A stretch of DNA of 64,000 bases, taken from Candidatus Thalassarchaeum betae. GTDB taxonomy: Archaea > Thermoplasmatota > Poseidoniia > Poseidoniales > Thalassarchaeaceae. The stretch is taken from the NCBI GenBank assembly GCA_003193925.1, contig PSPG01000008.1:32001-96000 (forward strand), written 5' to 3'. The notes beneath the pieces were generated by a model that saw only the letters and a list, made by a program, of their open reading frames with translations, had not been told where the DNA came from and did no database searches. Of the stretch, positions 60,388 through 61,989 are shown piece after piece. How positions within the stretch are numbered: the first letter of the stretch is position 1; each line of letters starts with the position of its first letter. The position numbers were made by a program, and so were the translations under genes.

Positions 60388-61989
60388 TCAGTCGTGTGGC
60401 CCGACCATGTCCCCGGCCCTGACCCACTGAGTGAATTGCTCGTCGCTCAGAAGACCCAGTTCGAGTGCGCTCTCGCGCAGCGTGGTCCCCTTGGCATGGG
60501 CGTTCTTCGCAATCTTCGCGGCGTTGTCGTAGCCAATGTGCGGGTTGAGCGCGGTGACCAGCATCAGCGAGTTCTCCAAGTGCGCGGCGATCCTGTCCTC
60601 ATTGGCTTCCAGACCTACCACGCACTTGTCGGTGAACGAGCGGCAGGTGTCTGAGAGCAGGCGGACGCTGTGCAGGAAGTTGTGGATCATCATCGGCTTG
60701 TACACATTGAGCTCAAAATTGCCCTGACTGCCTCCGACCGAGATGGCGGTGTGGTTGCCCATCACCTGGCAGCACACCATCGTCATCGCCTCGGCCTGCG
60801 TTGGGTTGACCTTGCCCGGCATGATGCTCGAGCCCGGCTCGTTGGCCGGTAGTGAGAGTTCCCCGAAGCCGCAGCGTGGCCCCGAGCCGAGCCACCTGAC
60901 GTCGTTCGCGATCTTCATCAGCGAGGTCGCTAGGGTGTTCAGCGCCCCTGAGGCGGCCACCAGCGCATCGTGGGCGGCGAGCTGCGCGAACTTGTTCTCG
61001 GCGCTGACGAAAGCCAGTCCGGTCTTCTCGGCGATGTGGCCCGCGGCCGTGTCTGCGAACTCAGGGTGGGTGTTGAGGCCGGTGCCGACCGCGGTTCCCC
61101 CGAGCGCCAACTCGAGCAGGTCCCCCATAGCGCTCTCGATGCGGCTGATGTTGGCATCGAGCATTGAGACATAGCCACTGAACTCTTGCCCCAAGGTGAG
61201 TGGGACGGCGTCCATGAGGTGGGTCCTGCCGATCTTGACGATGCTCCTGAAGTCCCTCGCCTTGCTTGCCAGAGCGCTGCGCAAATGGCGTACTGCGGGC
61301 AATAATCGATGGCTGACCTCCTCTGCGGCAGCGATGTGCATGGCGGTCGGGAAGGTGTCGTTGCTTGACTGGGCGCGGTTGACGTGGTCGTTCGGGTGTA
61401 CCGGGGTCTTGCTGCCTACGGAGCCGCCTGAGATCTCGATCGCACGGTTGGCGATGACCTCGTTGGCGTTCATGTTGGTCTGGGTCCCCGAGCCCGTCTG
61501 CCAGACCCTGAGCGGGAAGTGCTGGTCCAAGGAGCCCGAGATGACCTCGTCGCAGGCTGAGGAGATCAGCGAGCCGATGTTGGAATCCATCTGGCCCAGT
61601 TCGACATTGGTCTTGGCCGCAGCCTGCTTGAGAACCCCAAAGGCGCGTATCACCGAACGCGGCATCGTGTCCTCGCCGATGTCGAAATTGAGCAGTGATC
61701 GTGCCGTCTGGGCCCCGTAGTACCTGTCTGCAGGGACCTCGACCTCCCCCATCGTGTCCTTTTCGACCCTGATTGCGTCTGGTTGGGCCCTCGCGCTGCG
61801 AGCTGCGGCCCTAGGCTCCTCAGAACGCTCATCCGCCTCCGAATCGAGGGATTCCTGTATCATTCTCGAGATGGTTGCAGAGCGTCCCTTCTCGCGTCCC
61901 TTGCCGACTCTCCTGTCGAGCCTCTTAGCGAGGTCCTCTGGTATGCTTATACTGACTATCCTGCGGTCTCCGGCACGGTGTTTGGCCAT
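60388..61989 (-). CDS. fumC: Class II fumarate hydratase fused to an N-terminal ribbon-helix-helix domain
   Basis: 'RVEKDTMG', 'WQTGSGT', 'GRTHLMDA', '[15 protein letters not shown]'; N-terminal '[15 protein letters not shown]...[10 protein letters not shown]'. Confidence 0.95.

What the first reader, a model, noticed from the sequence alone, without database searches (positions are those of the whole stretch)
60388..61989. Fumarase fused to a ribbon-helix-helix DNA-binding domain
Seen: ~70 extra N-terminal residues in frame with a complete FumC. They show an alternating beta-strand 'IVSISIP', helix 'EDLAKRLD', turn 'GRS' and helix '[11 protein letters not shown]', then a linker. The only Met between the RHH start and the 'RVEKD' core is inside the RHH itself, and a TATA-like palindrome sits just upstream of the RHH ATG. 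Known: PutA is an RHH-enzyme autorepressor, and fumarases moonlight in DNA-damage responses. Inference: a trigger enzyme coupling TCA flux to transcription or localising fumarate production on DNA.
Basis: partly seen in the sequence, partly recalled or inferred. Interest (0 to 1): 0.75.

Follow-up and report, generated by a model that had tools for sequence, protein, structure and literature searches.

The report
Fumarase fused to DNA-binding domain
The only fumarase found in this marine archaeon carries a real, strongly conserved DNA-binding-type domain at its front end and sits behind an unusual palindromic promoter box, so this TCA-cycle enzyme probably also works as a gene regulator, most likely of its own gene.

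Summary
ORF 60388-61989 (-) encodes 533 aa in three parts. Residues ~9-50 are a ribbon-helix-helix (RHH) domain (Pfam RHH_1 above its cut-off; structure matches almost all RHH proteins; nearest solved sequence is the NikR RHH). Residues 51-72 are a variable linker. Residues 73-533 are a complete class II fumarase.

The organism is a Marine Group II archaeon (Poseidoniales). No class I fumarase was found in its 92%-complete genome.

The fusion is not an annotation artefact:
- The RHH is present in 189 of 285 species genomes of the order, always in a ~530-aa fumC frame.
- It is under strong purifying selection (dN/dS ~0.07).
- It has no close free-standing relative.
- It starts ~27 nt after a TATA-like box, as a leaderless gene would.
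- A quick tree suggests an ancestral fusion lost at least 6 times.

An AT-rich box (TTATTAA/TTAATAA) lies upstream in 45 of 45 fused genes and 0 of 16 unfused ones. It is nearly unique in the genome and unlike the generic promoter box.

The sister order MGIII carries a different conserved N-terminal domain on FumC, with two tandem palindromes before the TATA box in 30 of 30 loci.

Best reading: an autoregulatory trigger enzyme. DNA binding is untested.

The parts
60388..61989 (-). Whole ORF, 533 aa plus stop: RHH-linker-FumC fusion protein
61966..61989 (-). Residues 1-8, basic N-terminal arm MAKHRAGD, nearly invariant across the order
   Evidence: M1, R5, G7, D8 at least 90% conserved
61840..61965 (-). 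Residues 9-50, ribbon-helix-helix domain (strand RRIVSISIP, helix A 18-28, loop GKGREKGRS, helix B from 36)
   Evidence: Pfam RHH_1 at residues 12-48 above cut-off; AF2 model; VIA-align matches are RHH proteins; NikR RHH is the best solved sequence match
61774..61839 (-). Residues 51-72, linker: variable in sequence, roughly constant in length, low model confidence
60391..61773 (-). Residues 73-533, complete class II fumarase (FumC) core with the [11 protein letters not shown] signature loop
   Evidence: end-to-end alignment to solved FumC 6n1m, E 1.6e-199; E. coli FumC 1fuo residues 3-462
62011..62021 (-). TATA-like box TTTATTAATAA (holds the 10-bp palindrome TTATTAATAA), centre ~27 nt upstream of the ATG
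62003..62017 (.). Inverted repeat TTAAT-N5-ATTAA overlapping the TATA-like box and the TATA-to-start interval; candidate operator
   Evidence: the only TTAAT-N5-ATTAA in the genome; kept in same-genus genomes and in several genera of the family

Best explanation
The gene encodes one polypeptide translated from the ATG at 61989, probably on a leaderless mRNA. It has a NikR/CopG-type ribbon-helix-helix DNA-binding domain, a ~22-residue flexible linker, and a complete, apparently active class II fumarase, the only fumarase found in the genome. FumC enzymes are tetramers and RHH domains act as dimers (established knowledge). A tetramer should therefore display two RHH dimers, an architecture like NikR, where a tetrameric core is flanked by two RHH dimers. 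I infer that these dimers bind the AT-rich palindromic box (TTTATTAATAA / TTAAT-N5-ATTAA) that overlaps the gene's own TATA box and the TATA-to-start interval. The enzyme would then repress its own transcription, possibly depending on enzyme level or substrate state, making it a trigger enzyme in the manner of PutA. Shown here: the domain, its fold class, its conservation and selection, its lineage range, and the peculiar conserved promoter box and its co-occurrence with the domain. Inferred: dimer or tetramer display, DNA binding, the target site, repression, and any response to metabolites.
For: Domain: RHH_1 is above its cut-off (12 of 16 diverse orthologues match at E<=0.01). In the VIA-align search of 48,161 chains the top rows are RHH repressors and antitoxins (TacA1 Z 5.2, CopA_SO 5.1, ORF56 4.9, PutA RHH 2rbf 4.7, NikR 2bj1 4.6 at 27% identity). 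The best solved sequence matches are NikR RHH domains (E 0.013-0.024). Translated and selected: 197 of 371 near-length candidates match residues 1-75 at E<=0.01, and all 120 listed carry Lyase_1. Nearly all start [11 protein letters not shown]. Median dN/dS for codons 2-48 is 0.07 (37 usable of 105 pairs), and variable sites by codon position are 28/17/47 of 48. There is no alternative in-frame start. Leaderless geometry: the box centre lies ~27 nt before the ATG, and A+T content peaks at -33..-26 before 659 ORF starts in this genome. Range: 189 of 285 genomes of the order have the domain at E<=1e-12 (f1 110/120, f2 1/2, f3 77/162). In 301 genomes of the phylum, strong hits occur only inside the order. 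Cis element: TTATTAA/TTAATAA lies at -50..-13 in 45 of 45 fused and 0 of 16 unfused fumC genes. There are 12 such heptamers in the 1.48-Mb genome, 2 of them here, and TTAAT-N5-ATTAA is unique. The generic promoter box is TTGAAG-like in this genome and TTGAAA-like in a second fused genome, where 0 of 149 ORF starts and 0 positions in 200 kb carry the fumC box. tRNA promoters also differ. Parallel case: in MGIII, 30 of 30 fumC loci with a different conserved N-terminal domain have two palindromes ATGCA-N3-TGCAT at -63 and -46, abutting the TATA box. That pattern occurs only 0-3 times per genome.
Against: No binding was tested. The box sits exactly where a TATA box belongs, so it may simply be an unusually canonical, strong TATA. 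Joint loss of box and RHH may reflect physical linkage, since a deletion taking the 5' end of the gene takes the promoter too, and kin are not independent. Only the heptamer is conserved across the whole order. The TTAAT-N5-ATTAA dyad is limited to some genera of the window's family. At least 6 losses show that the domain is dispensable. The identical palindrome TTAATAATTATTAA occurs at two other places in the genome, between convergent gene ends and not at promoters. One contig of an RNA library (X2, 159 nt, no differences) runs from the upstream PPIase gene's 3' end across the spacer into fumC (61968-62125). It could be read-through transcription or DNA in the library. If read-through, the mRNA is not only leaderless.
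Confidence: 0.5

Rival explanations
1. The RHH-FumC is a transcription factor for other genes. The fumarase body serves as sensor and tetramerisation core, as the C-domain does in NikR, and the fumC promoter is at most one of its targets.
For: The RHH strand residues are nearly invariant across the order, while the sequence downstream of the box varies by lineage. Related 14-bp palindromes TTAATAATTATTAA exist at two other loci and are kept in same-genus genomes. Several lineages carry a second copy of the box 37-70 nt upstream or near the ATG.
Against: Few candidate sites exist per genome. The two extra sites lie between convergent gene ends, not at promoters. Repeated loss of the domain fits a local accessory circuit better than a global regulator.
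Confidence: 0.17
2. The RHH tethers fumarase to DNA so that fumarate or malate is made locally for a DNA-damage or chromatin function, as proposed for class II fumarases of yeast, human and B. subtilis.
For: Published role of class II fumarase in the DNA-damage response, including co-localisation with DNA in B. subtilis (PMC5711358 and PMC6068284; title and start of abstract seen in the listing).
Against: RHH domains are typically sequence-specific operator binders (established knowledge). The conserved cis element lies at the gene's own promoter. No repair genes are linked: the neighbours are a cyclophilin and a PQQ-repeat protein.
Confidence: 0.1
3. The domain has an RHH fold but does not bind DNA. 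It serves in oligomerisation, protein partnering or allosteric control of the enzyme, and the AT-rich box is simply a strong TATA box.
For: The box is at the canonical TATA position. Loss of box and domain together can be explained by linkage. RHH domains also mediate protein contacts in antitoxins (titles).
Against: The invariant basic arm and strand ([14 protein letters not shown]) and the GRS turn are the DNA-contacting parts of RHH proteins (recalled). The box is unlike the generic promoter box of two genomes. MGIII shows separate palindromes upstream of a separate TATA box.
Confidence: 0.15
4. Annotation artefact: translation starts downstream and the N-terminal 72 codons are untranslated leader.
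For: None beyond the general uncertainty of start sites.
Against: No in-frame start codon lies between Met43 and the core. dN/dS is 0.07, with third positions free to vary. The Met-first N-terminus is conserved in 189 of 285 genomes. Unfused orthologues have their own Met just before VRIE, which the window's gene and most of the fused genes lack.
Confidence: 0.02

Closest known systems
PutA (proline utilisation A) of E. coli and relatives
   Same: An N-terminal RHH domain is fused to metabolic enzyme domains and the protein represses its own operon: the classic RHH trigger enzyme. The PutA RHH (2rbf) matches the model at Z 4.7.
   Different: The enzyme part is unrelated (proline and P5C dehydrogenases versus fumarase). 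The PutA switch relies on FAD reduction and membrane binding (recalled), for which FumC has no counterpart. PutA is bacterial; this protein is archaeal.
NikR (nickel-responsive regulator)
   Same: It has the closest solved RHH by sequence (P. horikoshii 2bj1 E 0.013, 27% identity, Z 4.6; H. pylori NikR E 0.023), with the same loop length between the helices. Its architecture is a tetrameric core flanked by two RHH dimers that bind two half-sites (recalled), which is the geometry proposed here.
   Different: The C-terminal part here is a 460-aa enzyme, not the small nickel-binding domain, and there is no NikR C-domain hit.
Class II fumarase FumC (E. coli 1fuo; best solved match 6n1m)
   Same: Residues 73-533 align end to end (E 1.6e-199 to 9e-180), including the signature loop.
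   Different: All 46 solved relatives listed align from query residue 56 or later and none covers the RHH. The human and yeast N-terminal extensions are mitochondrial presequences (recalled).
Fumarase in the DNA-damage response (B. subtilis Fum-bc, yeast and human FH)
   Same: A class II fumarase with a DNA-related second role (PMC5711358, listing).
   Different: Those enzymes have no DNA-binding domain. Recruitment is through partners or modification (recalled).
Other trigger enzymes with DNA-binding domains (BirA, NadR; recalled)
   Same: An enzyme and a repressor in one chain, often autoregulatory.
   Different: They use helix-turn-helix domains with different enzymes. None is a TCA-cycle enzyme and none is archaeal, to my knowledge.

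Membership tests
Ribbon-helix-helix superfamily (Pfam RHH_1, CopG/Arc/MetJ/NikR type) | Sequence match to the family profile above the curated cut-off | tested here: met
   21.3 bits in the whole protein, 24.1-25.3 bits for the N-terminus alone, cut-off 20.5; 12 of 16 orthologues match at E<=0.01
Ribbon-helix-helix superfamily (Pfam RHH_1, CopG/Arc/MetJ/NikR type) | Strand-helix-helix topology of about 45 residues | tested here: met
   The AF2 monomer has an extended N-terminus, helices 18-28 and 36-55, pLDDT 78.6. The VIA-align top rows are RHH proteins at Z 4-5.2, rmsd 2-3 A over 44-51 residues. Foldseek gave nothing at E<=0.001.
Ribbon-helix-helix superfamily (Pfam RHH_1, CopG/Arc/MetJ/NikR type) | G-x-S/T/N turn at the start of helix B (motif recalled) | tested here: met
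   G35-R36-S37; R36 and S37 are invariant and G35 is at least 90% conserved in 16 orthologues
Ribbon-helix-helix superfamily (Pfam RHH_1, CopG/Arc/MetJ/NikR type) | Dimer formed through the paired strands | not testable with these tools
   Needs SEC-MALS or a structure; the one complex job run is listed under Tried and rejected
Ribbon-helix-helix superfamily (Pfam RHH_1, CopG/Arc/MetJ/NikR type) | Sequence-specific DNA binding | not testable with these tools
   Only indirect evidence: a conserved palindromic box at the gene's own promoter
Class II fumarate hydratase (FumC) | Lyase_1 plus FumaraseC_C domains above cut-off, and full-length alignment to solved FumC | tested here: met
   383.5 and 86.5 bits; 6n1m E 1.6e-199 over residues 73-532
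Class II fumarate hydratase (FumC) | Signature loop GSSxMPxKxN (motif recalled) | tested here: met
   [11 protein letters not shown] is present and aligned to the same loop of 6n1m
Class II fumarate hydratase (FumC) | Fumarase activity and tetramer | not testable with these tools
   Needs an enzyme assay and SEC-MALS
NikR family | C-terminal nickel-binding tetramerisation domain | tested here: not met
   No such Pfam hit; the C-terminal part is FumC. Only the RHH resembles NikR.
PutA family | Proline dehydrogenase and P5C dehydrogenase domains after the RHH | tested here: not met
   Absent; the likeness is in architecture and logic only
Trigger enzyme (enzyme that also regulates transcription) | The same polypeptide binds an operator and changes transcription | not testable with these tools
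   Inferred

The most novel reading that the evidence does not exclude
Across the whole class Poseidoniia (Marine Groups II and III, among the most abundant planktonic archaea), the TCA-cycle enzyme fumarase has been turned into a DNA-binding autoregulator. In MGII this is done with a NikR-like RHH that binds a box overlapping its own TATA. In MGIII it is done with a different ~95-aa N-terminal domain of no recognised family, which binds two tandem ATGCA-N3-TGCAT palindromes next to the TATA box. This would be the first archaeal trigger enzyme of central carbon metabolism, and possibly a new DNA-binding domain family in MGIII.
Probability: 0.4. Interest if true: 0.8.

Novelty: new variant of a known kind. 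Interest (0 to 1): 0.65.

Why it matters
Marine Group II archaea are abundant and, to my knowledge (recalled), uncultured, so almost nothing is known about how they regulate genes. A fumarase with a conserved DNA-binding domain and a dedicated, easily synthesised candidate operator gives a directly testable regulator-operator pair, using recombinant protein and a 40-bp probe. It would add a TCA-cycle enzyme to the short list of trigger enzymes and extend the PutA/NikR logic to archaea. The MGIII counterpart offers a second, independent test, with a cleaner operator layout and a domain of unknown family. Four full-text searches found no paper describing the fusion.

Tried and rejected
- Homodimer prediction of residues 1-52 (complex prediction): score 0.35 against a mark of 0.42, so no verdict. 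It is not used either way.
- Foldseek against the PDB with the 62-residue model: nothing at E<=0.001. The wide VIA-align search was used instead.
- RNA evidence: only small shares of words in 8 runs. The contigs laid are fragmentary, positions 61855-61965 have no cover, and there is no information on the transcript start.
- Search of 1.84 billion cluster representatives with the RHH profile: 93 hits at E<=0.001. I read 30 of them. Of those at E<=1e-8, all but one short protein (P0162, the same RHH type as the genus g17 fused genes) are contig-end pieces or chimeras of fused fumC. No full-length fused protein appears, presumably because fused and unfused FumC share clusters at 50% identity. The rest are generic RHH or NikR-like proteins. 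No close free-standing relative was found.
- Homology between the MGII RHH and the MGIII N-domain: hhalign probability 0.1%, no Pfam RHH hit in 11 members, no PDB sequence hit at E<=10, AF2 pLDDT 47.5, too low for a fold search. The ESM Atlas gave only sub-threshold leads to RHH_6, RHH_1, RHH_9 and CB_ParB_C at 0.87-0.88. The MGIII domain stays unassigned.
- Regulon search: the TTAAT-N4/5-ATTAA pattern gives 3 sites in the window's genome and 1-3 in each of five same-genus genomes. The non-fumC sites lie between convergent gene ends, so no TCA-cycle regulon is evident.
- The stand-alone 47-aa RHH match at G006:C16 is a contig-end piece, not a free gene.
- The search of earlier findings returned nothing.
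- One search failed on an entry that was too short and was resent.

Full report
WHAT IS THERE. The ORF at 60388-61989 on the minus strand is open for 533 codons from an ATG. Pfam finds Lyase_1 (residues 81-411, E 1.1e-114) and FumaraseC_C (477-529). It also finds RHH_1 at residues 12-48, at 21.3 bits in the whole protein and 24.1-25.3 bits for the N-terminus alone, against a curated cut-off of 20.5. Residues 73-532 align end to end with solved class II fumarases: 6n1m at E 1.6e-199 and E. coli FumC 1fuo residues 3-462. The alignment includes the [11 protein letters not shown] loop. None of the solved relatives covers the RHH.

The sequence shows no in-frame ATG, GTG or TTG between Met43, inside the RHH, and Met79, inside the conserved DTMG of the core.

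FOLD OF THE N-TERMINUS. An AF2 model built on 16 orthologues (alignment A1) has mean pLDDT 78.6. Its N-terminus is extended, with helices at 18-28 and 36-55. Foldseek found nothing significant. VIA-align against 48,161 chains returned a list made up almost wholly of RHH repressors and antitoxins: TacA1 Z 5.2, CopA_SO 5.1, ORF56 4.9, PutA RHH 4.7, NikR 4.6 at 27% identity, then AmrZ, Arc and omega. The Z values are modest, as expected for 50 residues, but the list is uniform.

By sequence, the nearest solved proteins are the RHH domains of NikR from P. horikoshii (E 0.013) and H. pylori (E 0.023), with the same loop length between the helices. Invariant or nearly invariant positions are M1, R5, G7, D8, R10, I11, S13, S15, P17, D25, G35, R36 and S37. 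These are the basic arm, the strand and the turn, which in RHH proteins contact DNA (recalled).

ORGANISM AND GENOMIC SETTING. Source names of close homologues point to Candidatus Poseidoniales, Thalassarchaeaceae and Thermoplasmatota, that is Marine Group II archaea. The window's genome has 1.48 Mb in 23 contigs and is 92% complete. It has one FumC, one distant Lyase_1 paralogue, and no hit to the class I fumarase family PF05681. The upstream gene on the same strand is a cyclophilin. Downstream, convergent, lies a PQQ-repeat protein.

THE FUSION IS REAL, OLD AND SELECTED. A word-indexed search with residues 1-75, restricted to proteins of near-full length, gave 197 proteins at E<=0.01 among 371 candidates. 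All 120 listed carry Lyase_1 and most are 530-538 aa. Nearly all begin [11 protein letters not shown], followed by a linker that varies freely in sequence but little in length.

For codons 2-48, median dN/dS is 0.07 (37 usable of 105 pairs among 15 genes). Of 48 codons, 47 vary at the third position, against 17 at the second.

With the A1 profile, 189 of the 285 species genomes of the order that are at least 80% complete have the domain at E<=1e-12. By family (these counts leave out the window's genome) this is 110/120 in the window's family, 1/2 in a second and 77/162 in the third. In the rows listed, each match is in a frame of about 530-600 aa, or in one cut short, mostly by a contig end.

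In 301 genomes of the phylum, strong matches (E<=1e-22) occur only in this order. The 19 genomes outside it have weak matches (8e-10 to 9e-6) in short frames of NikR or CopG size, and two in 433-447-aa frames that I did not follow.

A profile search of 1.84 billion cluster representatives found no close free-standing relative. Of the hits I read at E<=1e-8, all but one short protein of the g17 variant type are pieces or chimeras of fused fumC.

Unfused orthologues start M-x-x-VRIE and lack the RHH. In a quick ML tree of 54 FumC cores, the MGII enzymes form one clade (SH-aLRT 100). The unfused forms are nested among fused ones, and well-supported branches force at least 6 changes. No row that I had was dropped. 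The careful tree search did not finish. With fused forms on all basal branches and no free donor RHH, an ancestral fusion with repeated loss is the economical reading.

THE PROMOTER. The box TTTATTAATAA is centred ~27 nt upstream of the ATG. This is the spacing of a TATA box on a leaderless archaeal mRNA. The genome as a whole shows an A+T peak at -33..-26 before 659 ORF starts.

The box is not the organism's ordinary promoter box:
- The enriched hexamers at that position are TTGAAG, TTCAAG and ATTCAT.
- The 43 tRNA genes have similar weak boxes.
- TTTATTAATAA occurs once in the genome and TTATTAA/TTAATAA 12 times.
- The dyad TTAAT-N5-ATTAA occurs once, at 62003-62017.

In a second fused genome (57% G+C), 0 of 149 ORF starts and 0 positions in 200 kb carry the heptamer. 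The 20 kb holding fumC were not fetched for that count. The generic box there is TTGAAA.

Across loci with usable, non-duplicate upstream sequence, the heptamer lies at -50..-13 in 45 of 45 fused genes and 0 of 16 unfused genes. The background rate is 0.016 per 38-nt window. Two fused loci lacked upstream sequence, one was a duplicate, and one with a GTG start was not parsed but has the box by eye. The part downstream of the box (AACYAATTAAYGC) is conserved across several genera of the window's family but differs in other lineages. Some lineages have a second copy of the box instead.

A PARALLEL IN MARINE GROUP III. The outgroup FumC of the sister order has its own N-terminal extension. It is conserved in 34 of 39 genomes of that family, at 42-54% identity between genera, in 535-572-aa frames where the gene is not cut by a contig end. 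It occurs in 30 species-level loci, several of whose record titles say marine group III. It starts M-P-K-x-D-Y-T-S-I-R-V-T-K-E-V and has a strand-helix-helix-like pattern followed by GHVRFPxYGxFxCP.

No method links this domain to the RHH or to any family: hhalign 0.1%, no Pfam RHH hit, no PDB hit, AF2 pLDDT 47.5, and only sub-threshold Atlas leads to RHH families. No free-standing form was found; the 21 short hits lie mostly on small contigs.

In 30 of 30 loci the upstream region holds two palindromes ATGCA-N3-TGCAT (one mismatch allowed) at fixed positions -63 and -46, 17 bp apart. They are followed at once by TTTTAATA-type TATA, while the flanks further upstream are not conserved. The exact pattern occurs 0-3 times per genome in five genomes, and in the four genomes with any match 1-2 of the sites are at fumC. 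This is a plain operator layout, separate from the TATA box. It makes it more likely that the MGII box is also a protein-binding site.

HOW IT MOST LIKELY WORKS. FumC is a tetramer and RHH domains bind DNA as dimers (established knowledge). Four domains on ~22-residue linkers can form two dimers on one tetramer, which is the NikR layout. I propose that they bind the palindromic box overlapping the TATA box and the TATA-to-start interval, and so compete with TBP/TFB or RNA polymerase. That would give negative autoregulation of the only fumarase found in the genome. Whether substrates modulate binding is open.

Shown here: the domain, fold class, selection, lineage range, the peculiar promoter element and its co-occurrence with the domain. 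Inferred: oligomer geometry, binding, target and repression.

WHAT SPEAKS AGAINST IT.
- The box is at the TATA position and could be only a strong TATA.
- Loss of box and domain together may be linkage, and related genomes are not independent.
- Only a heptamer is conserved order-wide.
- The domain has been lost at least six times.
- The same 14-bp palindrome, TTAATAATTATTAA, sits between convergent gene ends at two other loci and is kept in same-genus genomes. This hints either at other targets or at a role unrelated to this protein.
- One RNA-library contig bridges the upstream gene and the fumC start.

COMPARISON AND NOVELTY. The protein works like PutA (an RHH fused to an enzyme, with autorepression) and is built like NikR (a tetramer core with two RHH dimers). 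It is a member of neither family, because their defining C-terminal domains are absent. It is a member of the RHH superfamily and of class II fumarases. Four full-text searches found no description of an RHH-fumarase fusion or of RHH in Poseidoniales. For all papers cited I saw only titles and the start of abstracts in search listings. I rate it a new variant of a known kind, with interest 0.65.

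Noticed in passing
L061-L076 and L084-L113 (Marine Group III fumC loci): MGIII FumC carries a different conserved ~95-aa N-terminal domain (MPKxDYTSIRVTKEV...GHVRFPxYGxFxCP) of no recognised family. In 30 of 30 loci, two tandem palindromes ATGCA-N3-TGCAT lie at -63 and -46, directly upstream of the TATA box.
   Followed up: partly
window 59560-60190: Five to six copies of a purine-rich 44-63-nt repeat (GAACCGGAGAGAACTGGACGCAAGGAAGGGGGAGGAAGGGGAAGG...) at irregular spacing of 69-134 nt, in the ~1-kb gap downstream of fumC. 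It occurs only here in the genome, with 1-5 copies at the same place in same-genus genomes. It is not a CRISPR layout and its function is unknown.
   Followed up: partly
G000 C7:165890-165903 and C18:8578-8591 (outside the window): An identical 14-bp palindrome, TTAATAATTATTAA, lies between the stops of convergent genes. These are the only TTAAT-N4-ATTAA sites in the genome and are kept at 1-2 loci in four of five same-genus genomes. The same 14-mer forms the fumC promoter box in another genus (L024).
   Followed up: partly
G000 C16:92773-93204 (L003:1426-1857): The only other RHH_1 protein of the genome: 143 aa, RHH_1 at 31.5 bits, with what looks like a second RHH-like repeat.
   Followed up: partly
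G164:C3:21853-21990 and G350:C4:52263-52388: In another family of the phylum, weak matches to the RHH profile lie inside 433-447-aa open frames. These may be other RHH fusions and are not fumC.
   Followed up: no
window 62471-63814 (+) and 63819-64000 (+): Cysteine-rich proteins with many CxxC pairs, one with a TFIIB-type zinc-ribbon hit (23.3 bits) and apparent membrane segments. The first ORF as listed overlaps the cyclophilin gene on the other strand, so its start is doubtful.
   Followed up: no
G000 C18:8104-8343: A small ORF with a run of nine cysteines (CCCCCCCCC) and a hydrophobic tail, in the gap next to one of the 14-bp palindromes.
   Followed up: no
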